Part shown: piece after piece, positions 1 through 8,979 of the stretch | How the letters are laid out: every line of letters begins with the position of its first letter | How positions within the stretch are numbered: position 1 is the first letter of the stretch | Assembly: GCA_965277715.1 (NCBI GenBank) | Contig: OZ255836.1 | Location: 704,001-768,000 of the forward strand | From: Gammaproteobacteria bacterium | Lineage (GTDB): Bacteria > Pseudomonadota > Gammaproteobacteria > JBCCGL01 | Direction of reading: 5' to 3' | DNA: 64,000 nt | The notes under the pieces: model-generated | Told to the model about the DNA's origin: nothing | Seen by the model: only the letters and a program-made list of their open reading frames with translations | Databases searched by the model: none | Program-made: the position numbers and the translations under genes

Positions 1-241
1 TGCCGATTGGACAGCATAAAAAAAGTGGCCAAGATGATAAAAACGCACATGCCGAACATATTGACATGGTTTAAGCACACAATAAGTAATGCCGTGTCAG
101 AGGGTTTGAATTCAAAAATTCAGACGGTCAAATCGAATGCAAGAGGGTTTCGTTCGTTTGAAAGTTACCGGCGGAGTATTTTGTTTTACTGCGGAAAGCT
201 GGATAGGGAACCAGTGGCTTCACAATAATCGGGGAAGAACC
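1..241 (+). mobile_element. Right end of ISL3-family IS (transposase C-terminus to 228; terminal IR ending ...GGGGAAGAACC at 241)
   Basis: Translation ILTWFKHTISNAVSEGLNSKIQTVKSNARGFRSF...ILFYCGKL matches the DDE_Tnp_ISL3 C-terminus; the end reads GGTTCTTC on the - strand, typical of ISL3 termini. Confidence 0.85.
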
Positions 242-415
242 AGTAAATTTGGGTCTGAAGCTATGTTCTATACTAATGGAAAGTTTGGTAAGGTTGAAAC
301 GGGCAAAAAATTAGTTTCGTCATGGAATCCAGCAACCGATGCAACCTTTGATACTGATGTAATAGTTATTTACGAAGAGATTGTTGGTTGTGTGTGGGTT
401 ATCGACGAAGATTAG
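242..415 (+). pseudogene. 3' remnant of an integron cassette ORF interrupted by the ISL3 element
   Basis: Open frame from the IS end to TAG at 413-415, immediately followed by attC1. Confidence 0.6.
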
Positions 416-519
416 TGCTAACAAGTGCCTGCATAGGACAAAGTACAGTTGTCACCTTTTGTGAAAAAACACTCACAAAAGTCGCCAACTGCACTTTGCC
501 CATGAGGCAGGCGTTATGT
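416..519 (+). mobile_element. attC site 1 (104 bp)
   Basis: TGCTAAC...GTTATGT ends; internal IRs (gcctgcat/atgaggc with extrahelical base, caaagtacagttg/caactgcactttg, cttttgtg/cacaaaag). Confidence 0.9.
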
Positions 520-566
520 TTCAGGGAGATTGAGCTATCGGCATTGAGTCCCTAATTCCGTTTGGT

Positions 567-1454
567 TTGCATCAAGAGTCAGGTGAACTTGTAGACGTTT
601 CAAGTGTTGCCCGGGGCCGTAAATGCGGATGTATCTGCCCCTCATGCGACACACCTTTGGTGGTTCGCCAGGGAGAACAGAAAGAGTGGCACTTCGCACA
701 CTGGAGTCGAAATTCTTATTTTGAGACAAAGAGCGAGTGCGAATATTCCTTCCTCGTCTCAGTTCGTCTGATGATTCGTCAGCTCTCAATGACTGGGCTG
801 CGGATTCGTACACCCAGCTTAATTGAAGAATTGAATGTCTATAGTGAGGTCTCTCATCAATATTTTTGCAATAGATTCGTTGTTACCGAAGAGTTAGTGA
901 TTGAATTGAAATCACCTTGTGTTGGAGCTACGTTCTCAAATGTGGAGGTCGATGTGGTCGGGAGCGTGAAAACCGTTCCATTTGCCGTATATTGCTCTTA
1001 TCCCGGAAGGGATGTGCCAGAATCGTTGTGCCAACCTGATATAGAACTAAGTGGCGTCATCGAGATCAGTTTGGTCGGAATAGCGCAAAGATTTAGGCAT
1101 GTGGTATCTGGCCGATACGTCGACGCGCTACGGTCATACATTGAAGAGTCTTCTGAAGGGAAATTCTGGATATATCATCCCCGATACAAGCGTAAAAAAG
1201 AACAAACCGAGATAGAAAATGCGTCATGGCTATCGCAGCAAAAACCACGAAGTAGGGTAAAAAAAGACTTCCAGTCGGAAGAAACGATTGCACCAAAGAA
1301 AAACATGCAAGCATCGTCTATGCCAAATCGAAGAGCGAGGAGCTATAAGTGTATAATCTGTGGCAATCAGTGGCATGGTATATCCCGAAACTGCACTGCC
1401 TGCAAAACGCACCTGTATACGACTGAAAGCGGGATGGGTGGTGATGAAACATAA
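567..1454 (+). CDS. Cassette protein, CoiA-like N-terminal Zn finger plus C-terminal CxxC-CxxC ribbon (start uncertain)
   Basis: GRKCGCICPSC...RQG...WHFAH motif; C-terminal CIIC...CTAC; stop overlaps attC2. Confidence 0.7.
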   Translation: MHQESGELVDVSSVARGRKCGCICPSCDTPLVVRQGEQKEWHFAHWSRNSYFETKSECEYSFLVSVRLMIRQLSMTGLRIRTPSLIEELNVYSEVSHQYFCNRFVVTEELVIELKSPCVGATFSNVEVDVVGSVKTVPFAVYCSYPGRDVPESLCQPDIELSGVIEISLVGIAQRFRHVVSGRYVDALRSYIEESSEGKFWIYHPRYKRKKEQTEIENASWLSQQKPRSRVKKDFQSEETIAPKKNMQASSMPNRRARSYKCIICGNQWHGISRNCTACKTHLYTTESGMGGDET

Positions 1455-1520
1455 CAAGCACATTTTGTCGGACTGGTTTTCCGCTGCGCTCCAAACCAGC
1501 CTCAAATGTGGGCGTTAGCA
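1449..1520 (+). mobile_element. attC site 2 (72 bp)
   Basis: ACATAAC...GTTAGCA; cacattt/aaatgtg and ctggttt/aaaccag IRs; ACATAAC is the exact complement of the preceding GTTATGT (513-519). Confidence 0.92.
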
Positions 1521-1525
1521 ATCTT

Positions 1526-2002
1526 ATGAATCGACGCAAGCTATTAGCAACATTAACTGGTTTAACTTTGATTGGTGGCCTTATTTTGGCGGCAACCCCG
1601 TTCGTGGGTTCTCTGAGTCCAAATAAAGTTGCAAAAAGTAACGCAAAAGTAAGGGTGAAAATTACTGACATCCCTGAAATTGGTGCTCTCGAAGTTGATT
1701 ACCGGTGGTACAAGGCTTTAGTCGTAAAAAAACCGGAAATGGCAGTCTTCCTAATGCCATATTACGACAACGCATACCGCTTGCCTGATCCAACATGGGA
1801 AAGGCCGTTTGTTCCGTGCCATAACTTCATTACCGATGAGAAAGGTTTTTCCTGCAAAGATCCAAGTTTGCATGAAAGCTGGAATGCGCAAGCAACATGG
1901 GATTTCACGGGCAAAACTAAAGGAACCTGGATGCCAAACCTGCGACAAGCTAAATTTATAATAGAAGGTAAGCATCTTGTTCTTAGCCCGGAGTACAACT
2001 AA
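1526..2002 (+). CDS. Cassette protein, Tat signal/TM anchor, PetA(Rieske)-like but lacking canonical 2Fe-2S boxes
   Basis: MNRRKLL twin-Arg, ATPFVGSLSP, C-terminal WDFTGK...MPNL; ATG 1526 lies just after attC2. Confidence 0.6.
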   Translation: MNRRKLLATLTGLTLIGGLILAATPFVGSLSPNKVAKSNAKVRVKITDIPEIGALEVDYRWYKALVVKKPEMAVFLMPYYDNAYRLPDPTWERPFVPCHNFITDEKGFSCKDPSLHESWNAQATWDFTGKTKGTWMPNLRQAKFIIEGKHLVLSPEYN

Positions 2003-2003
2003 T

Positions 2004-2114
2004 TGCTAACAAAGCAGTCAAATTGACAGCTTTTCCGTCACTTGTTTATGTGGCGGTCGCTACGCTGCCACAACACAATCAACTACAAAGCTGCAATTTA
2101 CTGCGGCGTTAGAG
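2004..2114 (+). mobile_element. attC site 3 (111 bp)
   Basis: TGCTAAC...GTTAGAG; gcagtcaaattg/caatttactgc, cagcttt/aaagctg; TGCTAAC complements GTTAGCA (1514-1520). Confidence 0.92.
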
Positions 2115-2133
2115 GGCAAAAATAGGAAATACT

Positions 2134-3231
2134 ATGCCAAAGTTTTATGAAGTTTATGGGCGTGATGTTTATGATCAGTCTGAAGTAGCAGTAGCAGAGA
2201 GAAAGGCTGCTTATTGTCCTTTTACTGAAAATGTTTGTGATGGTGGAGGTAATAGGCATCAAACAAAAATAAAACTAGCCGGATCTGAATTACGAGAATT
2301 CTTTAATGATGAACTATCATCAGTTATTCCTGGGATATGCTCTATTCAATATGGTGATGAGACTTGGGTGGTGTGCCCTAGAAGATTGTTTGGTTTCTTT
2401 TCAAGGAGGAATGAAGTTCCTAATATAAATGAATCGTTACATCCTCATGAGCGTGAGGCATTAATTGAGGCTGGAGTACCGAAGGGTGTAGAGTTGGGAG
2501 TATGGCCTGAGGTTTATTTGCAATATGGAGATGAAGACACATCCATAAATTATCATTTTGATTTCGTTATTGCCCCAATACAACGAAACAAACCATTCTC
2601 ATGGTTGTTAGAGTCATACAATATTGGTGATGACGAAGTTGAGGCTTTTAAAGCAGCAGCTAAAACAGGAAAGTATTTAGAAGGTAGATATTCTCCAGAT
2701 AAAGAGCTGGAAATTTTGCCTGATCTCAATTCTCCGATAGTGATCGAAGTGATGACTGCAAGCACTTCGGGTTCAGATAAAGAGGCGAGCACAGATATCG
2801 CTGCTTCATTTACCGATGCAATCAAAGGAAACGACCACAATTGTCCCGGCATTAATAAAAGACAGGTATGGGGTCGCATGGCAACACAACTTTTTGCTAA
2901 ATCTGCTTTGGCTGAAGAGTGGGGAGGAAAAACTATCTGGCTAGTTCAAGATCAACTATTAAAAAATATTGAATTAACGACAAAGTTGAATCTTGATATT
3001 CCAAGTCCAGATTCCTCGGGTACCATTAATTTTCTAAGCATGTCTTATGCGGATGGGCAAAAAGGTACTGAATCACTGCGGTTCCTTAAATACTCAGAGA
3101 AAAGTGCAGGTTTGGATTTTCAAGGCAATCAAATGGCAACTGATATTTTGTTGCCAAAGGTAAATCCAGATAAAAAAGTATTATTGAAAGCTGTCTTACG
3201 CAGAAAACTTTCGGCCATAATTTCTTTATAG
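2134..3231 (+). CDS. NotI-family type II restriction endonuclease
   Basis: Four-Cys N-terminal metal motif (YCPF..CDGGG..GICS..VVCPRR) and FDFVI..IEVMT nuclease core; paired with a C5-MTase. Confidence 0.8.
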   Translation: MPKFYEVYGRDVYDQSEVAVAERKAAYCPFTENVCDGGGNRHQTKIKLAGSELREFFNDELSSVIPGICSIQYGDETWVVCPRRLFGFFSRRNEVPNINESLHPHEREALIEAGVPKGVELGVWPEVYLQYGDEDTSINYHFDFVIAPIQRNKPFSWLLESYNIGDDEVEAFKAAAKTGKYLEGRYSPDKELEILPDLNSPIVIEVMTASTSGSDKEASTDIAASFTDAIKGNDHNCPGINKRQVWGRMATQLFAKSALAEEWGGKTIWLVQDQLLKNIELTTKLNLDIPSPDSSGTINFLSMSYADGQKGTESLRFLKYSEKSAGLDFQGNQMATDILLPKVNPDKKVLLKAVLRRKLSAIISL

Positions 3232-3235
3232 AAAA

Positions 3236-4360
3236 TCAGGCTGCATTTTTCTTTTTGTTGCCAAATAGAGCAAAGTAAATTGCTTTACCCATGGCCTCTG
3301 CAAGAGGCGGTGGTACAGCATTTGCCACTTGCCTGTGCCGGTCTAAATCTTTGACAGTTCCGCTTCTGGCCCGAATAGGGCCTGAAAGTATGTGCGTATC
3401 TGGAAACCCATGTAGCCTAAGATATTCTCTAGGCGTTAGGTAGCGATTTTCCTCCGGATGATAAAACGCTTCACCACCACGAAGTGTAAGAGCCGGAAGG
3501 TCCCACGCCAATCTTCGAAATTTTGTCGTGTCTTTTTCTGGGTTCAATCTTTGCCTTTGGTCGGCAGGTAAGTGTAATTGTCTAGCCAAGCACTCGCCTT
3601 CAGGAACACCGTTTATCCGCTCTCTATCTCGCGGAGGAGTAATATCTAAGTGGCTTGGTATGTTTTCGATACGGCCTTTAAGTACAGGAGACGGGAGGTC
3701 ACCAATAGCGTCTTTCACAGATATATATGGAGCTTTGTCAGTTGAAAAAATATCTTTCTGTTTACTTTTCTTTTTCGGATCAAAGTGAGTTGGGGAGGGA
3801 AATTCAAATTCTCCCCCTTTTACTACACCAACAATAAATACCCTGTCACGTAGCTGAGGCACCCCATAATCTGCTGCTCTCAGAAGTCGAAAAGAAACGT
3901 CGTAACCAATATCTTGAAGGTCGGAGATAACCACTTTTAATGCAGAGCCGCCTATACCATCAGCACCTTTTGCGCTAAGCAACCCTTTGACTTGCTCGAT
4001 CAATACGGCTTTAGGTTTTAAAACTTTTGCGAATTCAATCATTTTATGAAGAAGTAAACCACGGTCATCATCAAGCGATTTTCGATTGCCAATTAAAGAG
4101 AAAGATTGGCATGGTGGCCCACCTGCTAACAAATCTAATTCGCCAACTTTTAAGCCAAGCTGCTTCTTTAAAGAGTGAGGTGATATATCGTTGATATCGG
4201 TTGCTAAGATAGGGTTAACAGATCTTCTGCTACACCAGTTTCTCAATGATTCATGTGCATGCTTATCAATCTCTGAGCAAAAAAGAGGGGTAAAGCCTGC
4301 ATTGTGCAAGCCCTCATCTAGGCCGCCAATGCCGCTGAAGAGTGAAACTAATGTTTTCAT
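3236..4360 (-). CDS. DNA (cytosine-5)-methyltransferase
   Basis: Motifs LFSGIGG, GGPPCQSFS, EQV (ENV variant), PQLRDRVF, RQVANAVPP; likely start MKTLVSLF at 4360. Confidence 0.95.
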   Translation of the reverse strand: MKTLVSLFSGIGGLDEGLHNAGFTPLFCSEIDKHAHESLRNWCSRRSVNPILATDINDISPHSLKKQLGLKVGELDLLAGGPPCQSFSLIGNRKSLDDDRGLLLHKMIEFAKVLKPKAVLIEQVKGLLSAKGADGIGGSALKVVISDLQDIGYDVSFRLLRAADYGVPQLRDRVFIVGVVKGGEFEFPSPTHFDPKKKSKQKDIFSTDKAPYISVKDAIGDLPSPVLKGRIENIPSHLDITPPRDRERINGVPEGECLARQLHLPADQRQRLNPEKDTTKFRRLAWDLPALTLRGGEAFYHPEENRYLTPREYLRLHGFPDTHILSGPIRARSGTVKDLDRHRQVANAVPPPLAEAMGKAIYFALFGNKKKNAA

Positions 4361-4420
4361 AGAAGACCAATTATGGAGATTTTCAAGGAGTATACTCAAG
4401 CTTAATTGATAACGCAAGCG

Positions 4421-4621
4421 TTAGAACATATCTGTTTTTGGTCTTCCTGTTCGCTCCCTTGGCCTAGCAGCAAACTCTCTGACTTTGTCTGGTTCAAGCA
4501 GTTGATCACGGCCAATTTTGGTGGACTCCAGTCTACCCTCGATTATCAACTGCCTTACCCTTGAAGCCGAAACGCCTAATATTGAAGCTGCCTCGCTGGT
4601 TGAAATTAGTTTTTCCGTCAT
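4421..4621 (-). CDS. Small excisionase/HTH_17-like DNA-binding protein, probable R-M controller
   Basis: ISTSEAASILGVSASRVRQLIIEGRL...KIGR wHTH pattern, directly upstream of the MTase. Confidence 0.8.
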   Translation of the reverse strand: MTEKLISTSEAASILGVSASRVRQLIIEGRLESTKIGRDQLLEPDKVREFAARPRERTGRPKTDMF

Positions 4622-4654
4622 TTCAAATTTTGCTCAAAATTGATTTTAACTTGT

Positions 4655-4683
4655 AGTATATTGATCTCTAACAAGCGGTTCAA
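4655..4683 (-). promoter_or_regulatory. Sigma70-like promoter for HTH-MTase: TTGAAC-17bp-TATACT, with the -35 inside attC4
   Basis: + strand AGTATA 4655-4660, 17-bp spacer, GTTCAA 4678-4683. Confidence 0.65.
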
Positions 4684-4783
4684 CGCGGACAGCCAAAACT
4701 CCAGTTGTTTTGTGTATTTCGCTTCGCTCAATTATCACACAAAACAACTTCCGTTTCAGCTGCCGGTTAACCGAGCGTTAGGC
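4666..4783 (+). mobile_element. attC site 4 (118 bp)
   Basis: CTCTAAC...GTTAGGC; cggttcaac/gttaaccg, agttgttttgtgt/acacaaaacaact; CTCTAAC complements GTTAGAG (2108-2114). Confidence 0.92.
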
Positions 4784-4789
4784 AATACA

Positions 4790-5485
4790 ATGAACTGTCC
4801 TCATTCAAAAATAGAAGCTGCACTTGATCGTTGGTCTGAATGTCATTGGCATATTCACCAAATCGAGAGCAACTATCATTCTCCGGGTCTATTTCGCTAC
4901 TCTTTGAACTCATTTATTCGTGCCATTAAAGAGATTCCTCAAATATTAAAAATGGAACTTCAAAACAGCCCGAAATACAGGAAGGTATGTAAGCCTATAA
5001 TCGATGCTCTAAAGTCGGATGAACTACTATCTTTGCTGTCAAAGAAACGTGATTTTATAGTTCATCAGGGCATGTTAAATGTTCTAAGCTCAGGGGTGGC
5101 TGGTACTACTGAAGATCGAGGAATAAAAATGGCTGTAGGCTTTAAAGTTGAGCTATACGAAACAACTGAAGAAGCATATAAAAAATTTAAATATTTGCTT
5201 CGTAAAAATCCCGTAGTAAGAGGTGCAGTTGGACCTGACTGCGATTCATGGCCAATGATTCGCCGAGAGTGGAAAGTTCCTGAGTTAGATAATGAGTTAT
5301 TGGAAGTCGCAATCACGGCCTGGAGATTGTGCGGTGAAGCTATTTCTAAGATAGTTGTAAAACTTGGTGGAGAACCCTTGGATTTATCTTTCCCTTGCAG
5401 GCACGACCCAGAGCGCGTAAAAACTATGGAATTTAGCCAGCAAGAGTTTTTTGATTCAGTAGGTGGCGTGAAAGAAAATGCCTAA
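4790..5485 (+). CDS. Cassette hypothetical protein with HEPN-like RxxxxH motif
   Basis: ATG 4790 just after attC4; helical N-terminus, RDFIVH at 5048-5065; stop within attC5. Confidence 0.6.
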   Translation: MNCPHSKIEAALDRWSECHWHIHQIESNYHSPGLFRYSLNSFIRAIKEIPQILKMELQNSPKYRKVCKPIIDALKSDELLSLLSKKRDFIVHQGMLNVLSSGVAGTTEDRGIKMAVGFKVELYETTEEAYKKFKYLLRKNPVVRGAVGPDCDSWPMIRREWKVPELDNELLEVAITAWRLCGEAISKIVVKLGGEPLDLSFPCRHDPERVKTMEFSQQEFFDSVGGVKENA

Positions 5486-5556
5486 CAAGGCCAGCCAGAG
5501 GGAACAAAAAATCGCCGCTTCGCTCTGGTTTTCGTCCCCTGCTGGCGGCGTTATGC
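5480..5556 (+). mobile_element. attC site 5 (77 bp)
   Basis: GCCTAAC...GTTATGC; gccagccag/ctgctggc; GCCTAAC complements GTTAGGC (4777-4783). Confidence 0.9.
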
Positions 5557-5600
5557 AAAATAAGTTGTGAATCGTACTAATAATTGAATTGGAGAAATGA

Positions 5601-6503
5601 ATGAAGAAAATTTATATGCTTTCAATGTTAGTGGCTGGGTTGCTAATTTCGACATTAGCCACTGCAGTTCCTAAATTTCCGATACAAGAGTCCATGGGCG
5701 GGAAGGCCTTTGGTCATAGCGTAAAAAATATTGGTAATGGGTTGTATGTATTTCGCTGGTGGGTTTATCGAAATATTTTTCTTGTCACTGATGAGGGAGT
5801 TATTGTTACCGACCCAATGAACCCCAAGGCGGCAAAATTATTACGAAACGAGATTCGTAAGGTAACAGACAAGCCGGTGAAATATGTTGTTTATAGCCAT
5901 AATCATCATGATCATATTTCAGGTGGGAATATTTTTGAGGCAGAGGGTGCAAAATTTGTGGGCCATGAGAACCTGCTAAAGGAATTGGGCGATCATCCGA
6001 GTCCAGTAATACCATTGCCAAGTATCACATTTTCAGACAAGCACACATTGACACTGGGTGGTAGAACTTTGGAATTATCCTACTTCGGGCCAAACCATGG
6101 TGAAAGCTTGGTTGTTATGCGGCTTCCGAAAGAGAAGATATTATTTACGGTAGATATTGTCACGCCGCGTAGAGTGGCCTTTCGTGGCATGCCCGATTTT
6201 TGGCCTGATGAGTGGGTAAGATCACTGAAAGAAATAGAGCAGATGGATTTTGACTATGTCATCTCGGGCCACGGGCCAGAAAATCAACCTGCAATAGATC
6301 CTGCCTCAATTGTTGCAGAGCAACGCATATATTTAGAAGATTTGATGGCAGCTGTAAAAAAAGCAATGGATTCAGGAACTCACAGCCCTGATGCATTAAG
6401 AAAAACCGTTAAGCTTCCTAAGTATGAAAACTGGCAATACTACAAAGAATGGCTCCCAATGAATATTGAGCGCATATGGGCTTATTATCATATGGGATGG
6501 TGA
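5601..6503 (+). CDS. Secreted MBL-fold metallo-hydrolase (cassette)
   Basis: Signal peptide; SHNHHDH, NHG, D, GHG metal ligands. Confidence 0.9.
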   Translation: MKKIYMLSMLVAGLLISTLATAVPKFPIQESMGGKAFGHSVKNIGNGLYVFRWWVYRNIFLVTDEGVIVTDPMNPKAAKLLRNEIRKVTDKPVKYVVYSHNHHDHISGGNIFEAEGAKFVGHENLLKELGDHPSPVIPLPSITFSDKHTLTLGGRTLELSYFGPNHGESLVVMRLPKEKILFTVDIVTPRRVAFRGMPDFWPDEWVRSLKEIEQMDFDYVISGHGPENQPAIDPASIVAEQRIYLEDLMAAVKKAMDSGTHSPDALRKTVKLPKYENWQYYKEWLPMNIERIWAYYHMGW

Positions 6504-6512
6504 TAGCCAATC

Positions 6513-6561
6513 GCATAACAATGCATTGCACCGGACTTCGCCGGTGAATGCGGCGTTAGAA
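6513..6561 (+). mobile_element. attC site 6 (49 bp, very short)
   Basis: GCATAAC aat gcattGcaccgg acttcg ccggtgaatgc ggc GTTAGAA; GCATAAC complements GTTATGC (5550-5556). Confidence 0.88.
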
Positions 6562-6576
6562 ACCTTGGAGAGTTAA

Positions 6577-6996
6577 GTGACAGACCGAAAACGTACCGTC
6601 GGTAGCGTAAAATCTGAACTGATCTCCAAGCCTTGGGAGACTGCGTTCGCTGCGATCAAGATTTTCAATGATCCATTAATATCTTTTAAGTGCGAAGCAT
6701 TTATTATCTTAATGGTCATTGCTTGGACCTATCTTCTACATGCATATTATCGGGCTAATGGAATTGAATACCGTTACTACCGGTAAGGCCCAAAACGCAA
6801 TATTTTTGATCGTACCAAGAAAAATGTGCACAAATATTGGGAGTTGGAACGCTGTCTTAATTGCAATAAATCTCCAATTGACCAAAGCACGGCAAACAAT
6901 CTCAGATTTTTAATCGGGCTTAGGCACAAGATTGAACATCAAATGACGAAATCGCTTGATTCATACTTGAGCGTGTTTGAAAGTGTCTGTCCCTGA
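6577..6996 (+). pseudogene. DUF3644 (HEPN-like) protein pseudogene, last cassette
   Basis: FNDPLISFK..FIILMVIAWTYLLHAYYR; in-frame TAA at 6784-6786, frame continues GPKRNIFDRT..YWELERCLN..NLRFLIGLRHKIEHQMT, truncated near 6972. Confidence 0.8.
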
Positions 6997-7286
6997 CACT
7001 CTTGGGAGAAATGCTACAAACAATAATTGATCGAAATGACATGAATATAGTGCCATGACGGTACAAAAAAATTTAATTTATTGTTTTTATTATATTCTTT
7101 AAGGATCAGTATCAAAGATGAGTTAGGGAAGTACCATTCGGTACTGAGTTCTTTAACGTACAGATAATTTGCCAGTCCAAACCCTCATAACTATAACTCA
7201 ACACCGCATCGCCACATCTGTGCTTCGGCACATTTTCCATGCCGTTAACTCGTTGGCATTATGAACGTGTAGCACCAAAGGATAAG

Positions 7287-7352: not shown

Positions 7353-8696
7353 TCAGCTCCAGGGAAACGGGCTATTTGAAACAGGGTGCAGTCTACCTTC
7401 AGCGTAACGTGAGAACCGGAATGGATCGAGTAGCTTCGTTGCACCGCCTGAAGCAATTTCTTCAGCAACCAGCTTACCGACACCAAGCATTTTGTAACCG
7501 TGGTTAGAGTCGGCGATTAAATACAGGTTGTCGCAAAATACATCGAATACGGGGAAGCTGTCTGGGGTGAATGCACCGATGCCACCAGATGGCTCGTTTT
7601 TGTACACATCCAGCGTGCCTTCAAAACGTTTTTGGCAATGCGCCAATGCCGATACCCACATATGGGCAAAGTCGGGGCCGACAATAAATTCTGGCGATTC
7701 AGGGCCATAGGGGTCGACAGCGACTTTGTCTGGATCAGTAGGCACTTTGAAAGGCGCTGCGCCACCTTGAATGCCACCGAAATGGAAGTCGGGTTTGTAG
7801 TAAATGCCCCACATTTCATCGGTAATAAGTGAACCATCTTCGGTTGAGTAGAGCGGGGCATTGGAGTCGACGTGAATAACCGGCGGCATTTTGCCATCGT
7901 TGGTTTTTTGTACTTCGGGGTCGACACCCAGGGTGCCTTCTTGTAATGACCAGTAAACCCACATGGGGATATTGTCGTGCATGCTGCCATCTGCACCTTT
8001 GATTGAAACCGTTTTGGGCAGATCCAGCATGTCCCACACGGTCTTGGCCCAGGGACCTACACCGGCGACAACGTAATCACAGGCAATGTTGCCCTTGCTG
8101 GTTTCGACATGGGTGATCGCGCCGCTGGCATCACGTGTAAATCCGTTGACCGGGACACCTGTGATGATGCGCACACCTGCCGCTTCTGCTTTGGTGGCGA
8201 GGCCGTAAATGGCTACCGTGTTATTGGCATAGCCGCCACGCTTTTCGTGCAATACCGAGGTAATGCCCTGTGCCTGCCAATCGTGAAAAATATTTTTCAT
8301 GTACGCCATGCTGTCGGCCTCGCCTTCGATAAAGGTGGATTCGTAGCCGATTTCCTTTTGTTCTCTGGCGATTTGTGCCACATCAGAGTGCATGCTTTCT
8401 GGGCTGATTTGCATATAACCCACGGGGTGGTAGCCGAAGTCGCTGGCATTTTCTTCCCACACACCCACGCTGTGGGCCATTAACTCACGCATGGCGGGCT
8501 GAAAGTAATTGTTGCGCACCACTCCGCAGGCGATGCCGGAGGCGCCCGCAGCAATGGCGGTTTTGTCGATGACGAGGATGTCGCTGCCATCGCCGGTACC
8601 CTTGGCTTTCAGTTGTTGCGCCAGGTGCCAGGCGGTGCTGAGACCGTGGATACCCGCGCCGATAATGACGTATTTGGATGACTCTGGAAATGCCAT
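7353..8696 (-). CDS. FAD-dependent oxidoreductase, N-methylglutamate dehydrogenase subunit A / sarcosine oxidase beta-like
   Basis: IIGAGIHGLSTAWHLA, GASGIACGVVRNNY, ADSNHGYKM. Confidence 0.8.
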   Translation of the reverse strand: MAFPESSKYVIIGAGIHGLSTAWHLAQQLKAKGTGDGSDILVIDKTAIAAGASGIACGVVRNNYFQPAMRELMAHSVGVWEENASDFGYHPVGYMQISPESMHSDVAQIAREQKEIGYESTFIEGEADSMAYMKNIFHDWQAQGITSVLHEKRGGYANNTVAIYGLATKAEAAGVRIITGVPVNGFTRDASGAITHVETSKGNIACDYVVAGVGPWAKTVWDMLDLPKTVSIKGADGSMHDNIPMWVYWSLQEGTLGVDPEVQKTNDGKMPPVIHVDSNAPLYSTEDGSLITDEMWGIYYKPDFHFGGIQGGAAPFKVPTDPDKVAVDPYGPESPEFIVGPDFAHMWVSALAHCQKRFEGTLDVYKNEPSGGIGAFTPDSFPVFDVFCDNLYLIADSNHGYKMLGVGKLVAEEIASGGATKLLDPFRFSRYAEGRLHPVSNSPFPWS

Positions 8697-8979
8697 GATG
8701 TTCTCCCGTTGCATGAGTGCCGGACAGCGTTTGTGTCAGTGGCGTGTTGGGCAATTTGTAAATGGTGGGCAGTATGTGAAGTTAAGCATTATGTATGCCC
8801 CGAAAAAACGACGTTATTTGTCATCACCTCGCCGATAAGGTGCAGCATAAAACCACACACAGAATGGCAAAACATAACGATCTGGTGTATTGGTTTAGGT
8901 TAAAAACAGGTCGAAGTTGTAGCACTGTATGGGGTTTCTGTGTGCCAACATCGGTTCAAATAACGTCGGAAATAACTCC

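What the first reader, a model, noticed from the sequence alone, without database searches (positions are those of the whole stretch)
2109..4777. Whole R-M system in one integron cassette, with the MTase promoter built into attC and a promoterless REase
Seen: GTTAGAG (2108) and CTCTAAC (4666) are exact complements, so the NotI-like REase, C5-MTase and HTH form one ~2.67-kb cassette. The REase starts 25 bp into the cassette, leaving no room for a promoter. The inverted HTH-MTase unit has TTGAAC-17-TATACT, whose -35 sits in the attC left arm that travels with the cassette. The two genes converge with a 4-bp gap. Inference: the genome stays methylated while restriction switches on only when shuffling brings the cassette near Pc, i.e. 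a safely stored, inducible defence. The controller is an excisionase-type HTH, not a classical C protein.
Basis: partly seen in the sequence, partly recalled or inferred. Interest (0 to 1): 0.75.

Follow-up and report, generated by a model that had tools for sequence, protein, structure and literature searches.

The report
Restriction-modification system as one integron cassette
A complete DNA restriction-modification defence system travels as a single mobile integron cassette in which the protective methylase appears to carry its own promoter while the DNA-cutting enzyme has none, a neat variant of a known theme whose proposed on/off switching is still untested.

Summary
Window 2109-4777 is one 2,669-bp integron cassette with its own 118-nt attC. 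It carries a 365-aa restriction enzyme on the sense strand, starting 25 nt after the cassette edge, and a convergent 66-aa HTH plus 374-aa C5-methyltransferase unit on the antisense strand.

Homology to three other genomes starts or stops exactly at the cassette edges. The upstream neighbour differs in all six cassette-borne copies. In one metagenome locus the cassette is second behind a verified integron integrase.

The restriction enzyme is NotI-like by fold only (Z 10.8). It matches no Pfam or NCBIfam model and no PDB sequence.

The promoter TTGAAC-17-TATACT is a modest consensus match. However, TATACT is invariant in 7 of 7 homologous cassettes while the leader around it diverges. The -35 is the L'' core of the attC.

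New here: a second promoter-like site before the methylase, and a conserved palindrome (4410-4424), found only where the HTH is present, that is its likely operator.

"Restriction only near Pc" is not shown. The restriction gene is under purifying selection as strong as the methylase's, and integrons as stores of silent defence cassettes are already published. Verdict: a real, well-built new variant of a known kind.

The parts
2004..2114 (+). attC of the upstream cassette (R'' TGCTAAC 2004-2010, R' GTTAGAG 2108-2114). The crossover G2108|T2109 is the left edge of the R-M cassette.
   Evidence: Bottom strand folds at -24.1 kcal/mol, z -4.3, 0 of 200 shuffles as good.
2109..4777 (+). The R-M integron cassette, 2,669 bp.
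   Evidence: Homology to L001 starts at 2107, to L002 spans 2105-4780, and to L003 ends at 4784. R''/R' are complementary.
2124..2127 (+). AGGA ribosome-binding site of the REase, 6 nt before the ATG. The 25-nt leader 2109-2133 is the only cassette sequence upstream of the gene.
   Evidence: Read. A purine-rich block of the same kind lies before the start in L001, L002, L016, L019 and L050.
2134..3231 (+). Type II restriction endonuclease, 365 aa, NotI-like fold, four invariant Cys (C28, C35, C69, C81).
   Evidence: VIA-align Z 10.8, 236 residues aligned to NotI 3bvq/3c25; the next hit scores 5.8. Foldseek E 3.5e-6. Invariant columns. Paired with a C5 MTase in 41 of 50 related loci.
3236..4360 (-). 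C5 cytosine DNA methyltransferase, 374 aa, convergent with the REase (4-bp gap).
   Evidence: PF00145 E 4.2e-58; TIGR00675 202 bits. Start fixed at ATG 4360.
4389..4417 (-). Second promoter-like site in the 60-nt HTH-MTase spacer: TTGCGT-17-TATACT. The tool's own scan lists an overlapping TTGAGT-18-CATAAT at 4399->4370.
   Evidence: Read. Similar layout in L016 and L006. Inferred only, no TSS data.
4410..4424 (-). Palindrome CTAACGC-TT-GCGTTA over the HTH stop codon and the -35-like hexamer. Candidate operator of the HTH protein.
   Evidence: Unique exact site in the window. At the same place in all 8 HTH-bearing relatives, and no such motif seen before the MTase in the 4 convergent loci without HTH that were read.
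4421..4621 (-). 66-aa HTH_17 / excisionase-family DNA-binding protein, first gene of the antisense unit.
   Evidence: PF12728 E 3.9e-7; TIGR01764 40.1 bits (cut-off 28.8). dN/dS 0.17 against L003.
4655..4683 (-). Promoter P1: TTGAAC (4683-4678, which is the L'' core read on the bottom strand), a 17-nt spacer holding R'', and TATACT (4660-4655). It ends 33 nt before the HTH ATG.
   Evidence: TATACT is exact in 7 of 7 attC-linked homologues while the leaders diverge.
4666..4783 (+). attC of the R-M cassette: R'' CTCTAAC 4666-4672, L'' GTTCAAC 4678-4684, L' GTTAAC 4767-4772, R' GTTAGGC 4777-4783.
   Evidence: Bottom strand folds at -29.4 kcal/mol, z -6.94, with bulged bases on the R''/L'' arm.

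Best explanation
Window 2109-4777 is a genuine, laterally mobile integron gene cassette that packs a complete Type II restriction-modification system.

The protective half is a small HTH_17 protein plus a C5 methyltransferase. It is read antisense to the array from a sigma-70-type promoter that belongs wholly to the cassette. The -10 (TATACT) lies 5 nt inside the cassette body next to R''. R'' itself lies in the spacer. The -35 (TTGAAC) is the L'' core of the cassette's own attC read on the bottom strand. A second promoter-like site and a conserved palindrome in the HTH-MTase spacer suggest that the HTH dimer tunes methylase output.

The cutting half is a NotI-fold endonuclease in the sense orientation. 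It has a 25-nt leader with a ribosome-binding site but no promoter, so it can only be transcribed by RNA polymerase entering from upstream (Pc, an upstream cassette, or here an ISL3 element). That transcription must run head-on against the methylase transcription, because the two genes abut with no terminator.

The result is methylation that does not depend on position and restriction whose level is set by the array context. The effect is probably graded rather than all-or-none.

Shown: the cassette borders, its mobility, the gene families, and conservation of the -10 and of the palindrome. Inferred: promoter activity, HTH binding, and context dependence of restriction.
For: Borders and mobility.
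- The R''/R' complement rule holds in 5 of 5 cassettes, and all 6 attC sites fold in the classical form.
- Homology to L001, L002 and L003 starts or ends within 2-7 nt of the cassette edges.
- GTTAGAR lies 23-29 nt before the REase start in 6 of 20 sequences examined, and the sequence upstream of it is different in each.
- The cassette is 95% identical to L003 over 2,412 nt, while 19.6 kb of window backbone matches that genome only in 4 short patches of 71-74%.
- In L016 the cassette is second behind an integron integrase (TIGR02249, 381 bits, cut-off 265).

Gene identity.
- PF00145 E 4.2e-58 for the methylase.
- NotI fold for the REase, Z 10.8 against 5.8 for the next hit.
- REase and MTase co-occur in 41 of 50 related loci.

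Promoter.
- TATACT is exact in 7 of 7 attC-linked homologues, 28-33 nt before the HTH start, with divergent leaders.
- TTGAAC at 17 nt occurs in 4 of them and TTGAAA at 18 nt in 1.

Operator.
- The palindrome is in all 8 HTH-bearing relatives and in none of the 4 convergent loci without HTH that were read.

No REase promoter.
- No + strand promoter-like site lies between 993 and 3843.

No terminator between R and M.
- The 3' ends lie within -31 to +5 nt in 21 of 22 convergent loci. One search lists no terminator-like site at the junction.

Precedents.
- A sigma-70 promoter bridging an attC junction (PMC2945992, sections 29-30).
- An antisense cassette promoter that silences an upstream cassette gene (bioRxiv 10.1101/2023.11.21.568050, passages).
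Against: - P1 is only a 9-of-12 consensus match, and the scan of 1-7200 finds fewer sites than shuffles do (11 against 15.9).
- The -35 is weak in 2 of 7 homologues (L019 TTAATT, L050 TAGAGC).
- There are no TSS or strand-specific RNA data. The only RNA library found holds contigs of a 90-97% relative, and the tool itself says this does not show transcription.
- The REase is under purifying selection as strong as the MTase's (0.044 against 0.058 for W-L001; 0.163 against 0.092 for W-L003). It is intact in all 7 full-length cassette-type copies. That fits regular expression better than long silence, although the loci were found by searching with the REase, which biases towards intact copies.
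- My promoter scan upstream of the REase did not separate cassette-borne from other relatives (1 of 6, 0 of 2 and 1 of 10 with a hit).
- The window's own intI and Pc are not in the window, and no genome is held.
Confidence: 0.62

Rival explanations
1. Strict storage switch. At distal positions the REase is fully silent and the cell is merely methylated. Restriction appears only when the integrase moves the cassette next to Pc.
For: - The leader inside the cassette is only 25 nt, and no promoter-like site lies within 1.1 kb upstream on the + strand.
- An ISL3 transposase tail at 1-228 separates these cassettes from whatever lies upstream.
- Convergent methylase transcription with no terminator would further damp the REase.
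- In run X4 a 7,098-nt contig equals window 2083-4001 without a difference and then continues unlike the window. That is a form with an unchanged REase gene and a broken MTase gene. It would be tolerable if the REase were silent.
- Moving a defence cassette to first position activated it in Vibrio cholerae (bioRxiv 10.1101/2024.07.02.601686, passages read).
Against: - REase dN/dS is as low as the MTase's, and all full-length copies are intact.
- Genome G002 carries the intact cassette but no integron integrase above the cut-off (best 81 bits against 265).
- Large arrays are widely transcribed from internal promoters (PMC2945992 abstract; bioRxiv 10.1101/2023.11.21.568050 abstract).
- A cassette landing at attI in a naive cell would express the REase at once, so the design is not obviously 'safe'.
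- The X4 contig beyond 4001 could not be read, so a second protecting methylase or a rearranged copy is not excluded.
Confidence: 0.2
2. Ordinary constitutive R-M system. The REase is expressed at a working level wherever the cassette sits, from a promoter that consensus scans miss (for instance one bridging the upstream attC junction) or by read-through. The gene orientation is only an inherited trait of this R-M family.
For: - The convergent, abutting R/M layout is a family trait that also occurs outside integrons (21 of 22 convergent loci; L024, L005, L022, L023 and L026 show no GTTAGAR cassette edge before the REase).
- There is strong purifying selection on the REase.
- A junction-bridging promoter with its -35 in the neighbour's attC is documented (PMC2945992, sections 29-30).
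- In-silico promoter calls correlate poorly with measured activity in cassettes (bioRxiv 10.1101/2023.11.21.568050, passage in section 22).
Against: - The sequence upstream of the cassette edge is different in all 6 cassette-borne copies, so a junction promoter cannot be a constant feature.
- The 22-28 nt leaders share only an A-rich tract and a ribosome-binding site.
- No + strand promoter-like site was found within 200 nt in 5 of 6 cassette-borne copies.
Confidence: 0.2
3. The small HTH is not a transcription controller but an attC-binding accessory, akin to a recombination directionality factor, that affects excision or capture of its own cassette.
For: - It belongs to the excisionase family by domain (TIGR01764) and gives a weak match to a phage Xis-like Gp37 (4j2n, E 0.097).
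- The half-site TAACGC of the conserved palindrome equals the 5' end of the bottom strand of all 6 attC sites of the window array.
Against: - The palindrome and the HTH are also present in L024, where no attC follows the HTH gene.
- The palindrome sits over a promoter-like site directly before the MTase, the classical place for an operator.
- GCGTTA next to R' is common in attC sites of these arrays in any case, so the likeness may be chance.
Confidence: 0.06

Closest known systems
NotI restriction endonuclease (PDB 3bvq, 3c25)
   Same: - Best and only strong structural match: Z 10.8, rmsd 4.1-4.3 A, 236 residues aligned over model residues 3-326; Foldseek E 3.5e-6.
- Similar length.
- Four invariant cysteines in the N-terminal part. 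By my recollection NotI has a Cys4 iron site there.
   Different: - Only 15-16% identity.
- No match to any Pfam model in 0 of 22 family members, none in NCBIfam, and none in sequence or profile searches of the PDB.
- Recognition sequence unknown.
Defence cassettes of sedentary chromosomal integrons ('biobank' model; bioRxiv 10.1101/2024.07.02.601686, passages read)
   Same: - A defence system carried as one cassette in a chromosomal array.
- That paper states that type II and IV restriction systems are among the prevalent ones in cassettes.
- It also shows that relocation to first position activates a cassette.
   Different: In the passages I read, that work does not describe a split design in which the protective gene is antisense with its own attC-embedded promoter and the harmful gene is sense and promoterless. 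I did not read the whole text or its supplements.
R-M systems found in integron cassettes earlier (Vaisvila et al. 2001, Mol Microbiol 42:587, seen only as a reference-list entry in PMC12707154; details recalled, not read)
   Same: A whole R-M system inside an integron array has been reported since 2001.
   Different: I could not read that paper. Whether orientation and promoters were analysed there is unknown to me.
Promoter bridging an attC junction in the Vibrio sp. DAT722 array (PMC2945992, sections 29-30 read)
   Same: A sigma-70-type promoter that uses attC sequence as its -35, with the -10 directly beside the attC.
   Different: That promoter is on the sense strand and is split between two neighbouring cassettes, so it depends on the neighbour. 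Here both hexamers belong to one cassette, face antisense and travel with it.
Regulatory methyltransferases with an N-terminal HTH (SsoII type) and C-protein-controlled convergent systems such as AhdI (review PMC12707154, passages read; PMC2275141, abstract in a search listing)
   Same: An HTH element tied to the methylase, with a palindromic site over the methylase promoter, would give autorepression of the methylase as in the SsoII type. The convergent R and M units resemble AhdI.
   Different: - The HTH is a separate 66-aa HTH_17 protein, neither fused nor of the Xre type.
- It is co-oriented with M, not with R.
- The REase has no promoter of its own for a controller to act on.
- A search for fused longer forms found none (weak evidence).

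Membership tests
Integron gene cassette | Bounded by core sites GTTRRRY, with the crossover between G and TT. | tested here: met
   GTTAGAG at 2108 and GTTAGGC at 4777. Homology to L001, L002 and L003 breaks at these points.
Integron gene cassette | Own attC with R''-L''...L'-R', folding as an imperfect hairpin with extrahelical bases. | tested here: met
   4666-4783: -29.4 kcal/mol, z -6.94, R box, 2-nt spacers, and an L box with a bulged G in GTT[G]AAC.
Integron gene cassette | R'' complementary to the cassette's own 5' end (a trace of the circular form). | tested here: met
   CTCTAAC against GTTAGAG, 7 of 7. The same holds in 5 of 5 cassettes of the array.
Integron gene cassette | Found in different arrays with different neighbours. 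| tested here: met
   Six different upstream contexts. The downstream neighbour differs in L003, L002 and L016.
Integron gene cassette | Array linked to an integron integrase and attI. | tested here: inconclusive
   There is no intI in the window (the array is cut by ISL3 at 1-228) and no genome is held. In relative L016 the cassette is second after intI (TIGR02249, 381 bits).
Integron gene cassette | Excision and integration by IntI. | not testable with these tools
   Needs an attC x attI / attC x attC recombination assay.
Type II restriction-modification system | DNA methyltransferase with the C5 motifs. | tested here: met
   PF00145 over profile positions 3-322 of 324, E 4.2e-58; TIGR00675 202 bits against a cut-off of 100.65.
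Type II restriction-modification system | Separate endonuclease gene that keeps company with the methylase across relatives. | tested here: met
   Both genes are adjacent in 41 of 50 related loci, 21 convergent and 20 in tandem M->R. The 9 without an MTase hit are short contigs or are cut at the relevant side.
Type II restriction-modification system | Sequence-specific cleavage blocked by the cognate methylation. | not testable with these tools
   The recognition sequence is unknown. Needs a methylome and cleavage assays.
NotI family (Pfam NotI model, accession recalled as PF12183) | Significant match to the family profile. | tested here: not met
   No Pfam family at E <= 0.01 for the protein and none of the kind at E <= 1 in 0 of 22 aligned relatives. 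Sequence and profile searches of the PDB also miss NotI.
NotI family (Pfam NotI model, accession recalled as PF12183) | NotI fold over most of the chain. | tested here: met
   Z 10.8, 236 residues aligned, model residues 3-326 against chain 16-327. The next unrelated hit scores 5.8. The model has mean pLDDT 77 and pTM 0.80.
Classical C (controller) protein | Xre-type HTH (HTH_3), encoded before and co-transcribed with the REase, with C-boxes in its own promoter. | tested here: not met
   The HTH is HTH_17 / TIGR01764. It precedes the MTase on the strand opposite to the REase. The conserved palindrome lies after, not before, its gene.
Excisionase-family DNA-binding proteins (TIGR01764) | Domain match above the curated cut-off. 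| tested here: met
   40.1 bits against 28.8, residues 5-52.
Excisionase-family DNA-binding proteins (TIGR01764) | Acts as a recombination directionality factor beside an integrase and att site. | not testable with these tools
   There is no adjacent integrase gene. The context is an R-M operon, so a regulatory role is more likely (inference).

The most novel reading that the evidence does not exclude
The cassette is a self-contained 'antidote always, poison by position' module in which integron recombination sites double as transcription signals. The attC L'' core serves as the -35 and R'' lies in the promoter spacer.

In addition, the operator of the excisionase-type HTH (CTAACGC-TT-GCGTTA) mimics the R box shared by the attC sites of the array. 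The HTH could therefore also bind attC sites and couple the control of restriction-modification to cassette excision or capture, for instance by holding its own cassette in place.
Probability: 0.08. Interest if true: 0.8.

Novelty: new variant of a known kind. Interest (0 to 1): 0.5.

Why it matters
Integrons are now seen as stores of phage-defence genes. How a cell can carry a stored poison-antidote pair safely is not worked out.

This cassette family offers a concrete, conserved design to test: the antidote (methylase) is wired to a promoter made partly of the recombination site itself, and the poison (endonuclease) is left to the array context.

If the design works as inferred, restriction strength would be tunable by cassette shuffling without any risk of losing methylation. 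The same logic may apply to other two-part defence and toxin-antitoxin cassettes.

The work also adds two smaller items. One is an uncharted endonuclease family of NotI fold (636 relatives at E <= 0.001, with no Pfam model). The other is a non-classical HTH_17 regulator with a clear candidate operator.

Tried and rejected
- Sequence-family searches for the REase gave nothing useful. Pfam and NCBIfam had no hit. PADLOC had one marginal hit (E 0.001 over 30 residues). Single-sequence and profile searches of the PDB found no NotI.
- No whole genome is held for the window, so intI, Pc and the full array could not be examined.
- dN/dS among the more distant cassette copies failed because dS is saturated. 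Only the close pairs were usable.
- The promoter scan of 200 nt (or as far as the contig reached: 149 nt in L019, 84 nt in L021) upstream of the REase did not separate the groups. Hits were 1 of 6 in cassette-borne loci, 0 of 2 in ATTAGAG loci and 1 of 10 in other convergent loci. By eye some non-cassette relatives have TATAAT-like boxes (L004, L025, L051), but I do not count that as evidence.
- A search for longer proteins with this HTH fused to a methylase found none. The tool itself says this is weak evidence.
- My home-made attC scanner was noisy and missed known sites. I used it only to confirm the attC of L003, L016 and L019.
- RNA evidence. The one RNA library (X1, lake-water metatranscriptome) holds four contigs of a 90-97% relative, over 2107-2384, 2586-2765, 3994-4264 and 4237-4537. 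The tool warns that DNA may be present, so I do not take this as proof of transcription of either strand. Parts without cover in X1, and 4002-4076 in X4, say nothing.
- The 30-letter continuation of the X4 contig beyond 4001 is not in the window, so its nature (mobile element, deletion or rearrangement) stays open.
- The P1 region holds no conserved copy of the palindrome. A likeness between CGCTTGTTAG in P1 and the operator half-site is limited to the window and L003, and I dropped it.
- No complex-prediction job was run for an HTH dimer.


Full report
**1. What is in the sequence**

The left 7 kb of the window is the distal end of an integron cassette array on the + strand.

- It opens with the tail of an ISL3 transposase gene (1-228, PF01610).
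- Cassettes follow, each closed by an attC: 514-1514 (CoiA-like zinc-ribbon protein), 1515-2108 (164-aa protein), 2109-4777 (the finding), 4778-5550, and 5551-6555 (metallo-beta-lactamase-fold protein).
- The last cassette is a broken DUF3644 cassette starting at 6556. Ordinary chromosomal genes begin at 7353.

In 5 of 5 consecutive cassettes the R'' heptamer of the attC is the exact complement of the R' heptamer before the cassette. This is the mark left by the circular cassette form. All six attC bottom strands fold into the R box / 2-nt spacer / L box shape with bulged bases. The attC of the finding gives -29.4 kcal/mol, z -6.94, and 0 of 200 shuffles fold as well.

The REase starts at 2134, 25 nt after the crossover point. 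There is a 4-bp gap between the convergent stops (3231 and 3236). TTGAAC-17-TATACT is at 4683->4655. One correction: the methylase starts at ATG 4360 (374 aa), which leaves a 60-nt spacer after the HTH gene.

**2. The cassette is one unit and it moves**

A scan of one genome per species with the REase found seven loci.

- Nucleotide homology to L001 (85.5%) begins at window 2107.
- Homology to L002 (70%) spans 2105-4780.
- Homology to L003 (95% over 2,412 nt) ends at 4784. Beyond these points the sequences are unrelated.
- With the metagenome loci, six sequences have GTTAGAR 23-29 nt before the REase start: the window, L001, L002, L016, L019 and L050. The DNA upstream of that site is a different attC or context in each.
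- The chromosomal backbone of the window matches the genome of L003 only in four short patches of 71-74% out of 19.6 kb. DnaB is about 50-60% identical to the related genomes. The 95%-identical cassette has therefore crossed between distant hosts.
- In L016 the cassette lies second after a verified integron integrase (TIGR02249, 381 bits, cut-off 265), behind one 495-bp cassette.
- The genome of L002 has no integrase above the cut-off, so there the cassette sits in an integrase-less array.

**3. The genes**

- *Methylase.* A standard C5 enzyme (PF00145 E 4.2e-58, TIGR00675).
- *REase.* The 365-aa protein matches no Pfam or NCBIfam model and no PDB sequence. It has 636 relatives at E <= 0.001. 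An AlphaFold model from 22 of them (pLDDT 77, pTM 0.80) has NotI as its only strong match. Foldseek gives E 3.5e-6. VIA-align gives Z 10.8 with 236 residues aligned, against 5.8 for the next hit. Four cysteines are invariant in the N-terminal part.
- *R-M pairing.* REase and methylase are neighbours in 41 of 50 related loci: 21 convergent (mostly REase >= 50% identical) and 20 as a tandem M->R pair (REase <= 48%). This is therefore a real, old R-M family, and 'NotI-like' is right as a fold statement only.
- *HTH.* The 66-aa protein is HTH_17 / excisionase family. It has faint likeness to a prophage Cro and a phage Xis-like protein. It is present in 8 of the 50 loci, all convergent.

**4. The promoter**

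As a consensus match P1 is modest (9 of 12), and the scan of 1-7200 finds fewer sites than shuffled sequence does (11 against 15.9). Conservation is what supports it.

- In 7 of 7 homologues where the HTH gene is followed by an attC-like site, TATACT is exact and ends 28-33 nt before the HTH start, while the leaders between them are unalignable. The seven are the window, L002, L003 (identical to L020 there), L006, L016, L019 and L050.
- The -35 is TTGAAC at 17 nt in four of them and TTGAAA at 18 nt in L006. It is poor in L019 and L050.
- On the + strand TTGAAC is the L'' core GTTCAA(C), including the bulged base. R'' lies inside the spacer.
- The promoter thus straddles the junction of cassette body and attC, lies wholly within one cassette, and points away from the attC into the cassette.
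- A sigma-70 promoter with its -35 in an attC has been shown experimentally in a Vibrio array. There it was on the sense strand and split between two cassettes (PMC2945992, sections 29-30 read).

**5. New observations**

- The HTH-MTase spacer holds a second promoter-like site, TTGCGT-17-TATACT at 4417->4389. The tool lists an overlapping TTGAGT-18-CATAAT.
- Over its -35 and the HTH stop codon lies the palindrome CTAACGC-TT-GCGTTA (4410-4424), unique in the window.
- The same palindrome is at the same place in all 8 HTH-bearing relatives: exact in three, with 1-2 mismatches in the rest. This includes L024, which has no attC after the HTH gene. No such motif was seen before the methylase of the 4 convergent loci without HTH that I read.
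- The abutting 3' ends (-31 to +5 nt in 21 of 22 convergent loci) leave no room for a terminator. Each transcript must run antisense into the other gene.

**6. How it most likely works**

Methylase expression is autonomous, probably from P1 plus P2 and trimmed by the HTH at the palindrome. The REase can only be read by polymerase arriving from upstream, and it is opposed by head-on methylase transcription. An antisense cassette promoter has been shown to silence an upstream cassette gene (bioRxiv 10.1101/2023.11.21.568050, passages read). Restriction level would then depend on array context.

Whether this is an on/off switch tied to Pc is not shown. Several results argue against a strict version.

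- REase dN/dS is 0.044 (window against L001) and 0.163 (against L003, residues 80-365). The methylase gives 0.058 and 0.092.
- All seven full-length cassette-type REase ORFs are intact. My loci were, however, found with the REase itself, which biases towards intact copies.
- One host lacks an integron integrase.
- Large arrays are reported to be widely transcribed (PMC2945992 abstract; bioRxiv 10.1101/2023.11.21.568050 abstract).

One result favours silence at this position. In run X4 a 7,098-nt contig equals window 2083-4001 and then leaves it inside the methylase gene. That suggests a form with an unchanged REase and a broken methylase. I could not read the rest of that contig.

**7. Comparison with what is known**

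R-M systems in integron cassettes have been reported since 2001. I saw that reference only in a reference list, and the details are recalled. The idea that chromosomal integrons store silent defence cassettes which are activated at first position is published (bioRxiv 10.1101/2024.07.02.601686, passages read). That paper also notes that type II and IV restriction systems are prevalent in cassettes.

Three full-text searches and the passages I read did not turn up the specific asymmetric design, an HTH_17 controller with this operator, or this REase family. I did not read supplements or whole texts, so this is not proof of absence.

**8. Verdict**

This is a new variant of a known kind and of moderate interest. 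Its main value is a conserved, testable design for carrying a poison-antidote defence pair inside an integron.

Noticed in passing
window 1-240: Tail of an ISL3-family transposase gene (PF01610, E 7e-20) reading into the array, with a promoter-like site TGGATA-18-AATAAT at 200-229 on the + strand. The element cuts the array off from whatever lies upstream and could feed transcription into the cassettes.
   Followed up: partly
window 6556-7000: The last cassette holds a DUF3644 gene broken into two frames (6577-6786 and 6826-6996 match different parts of PF12358) and has no attC after it. The array ends here, before a FAD oxidoreductase gene on the - strand (7353-8714).
   Followed up: partly
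window 2083-4001 in run X4; window 2107-2384 in run X1: In X4, a 7,098-nt contig is identical to 2083-4001 and then unlike the window, breaking inside the MTase gene, while other contigs of that run cover 4077-5577. In X1 (an RNA library), a 1,969-nt contig of a 97% relative matches only 2107-2384 and is unlike the window on both sides, breaking inside the REase gene. These may be natural disrupted forms of the system.
   Followed up: partly
window 1510-2112 in runs X2 and X4: The contig of the cassette 1515-2108 has a second continuation after 2112 that is unlike the window, and other contigs join at 1510-1539 and 5548-5577. The same cassette or attC appears to occur in more than one context in the source population.
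   Followed up: no
window 4410-4424 and the six attC sites (416-519, 1449-1520, 2004-2114, 4666-4783, 5480-5556, 6513-6561): The half-site TAACGC of the HTH-MTase palindrome is the same as the first bases after the variable triplet at the 5' end of every attC bottom strand of the array (xxxTAACGC). This may be coincidence or mimicry of the R box.
   Followed up: partly
L003 2548-2600: Directly after the R-M cassette in this relative lies a unit of about 55 bp bounded by GTTAGAC and GTTAGGC with no ORF. It may be an empty or remnant cassette. It is followed by cassettes that include a small two-gene pair.
   Followed up: no
L024 1150-1181: In this non-integron relative a different palindrome, TTTTAAC-AGC-GTTAAAA, lies 13 nt before the REase start. 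It shares TAAC...GCGTTA with the HTH-MTase palindrome, so the HTH might also act on the REase there.
   Followed up: no
window 567-1454 and 5601-6503: Neighbouring cassettes encode a CoiA-N-like protein with a C-terminal zinc ribbon (PF25164, PF11682) and a metallo-beta-lactamase-fold protein (PF00753, E 2.9e-17). Their functions are unknown.
   Followed up: no
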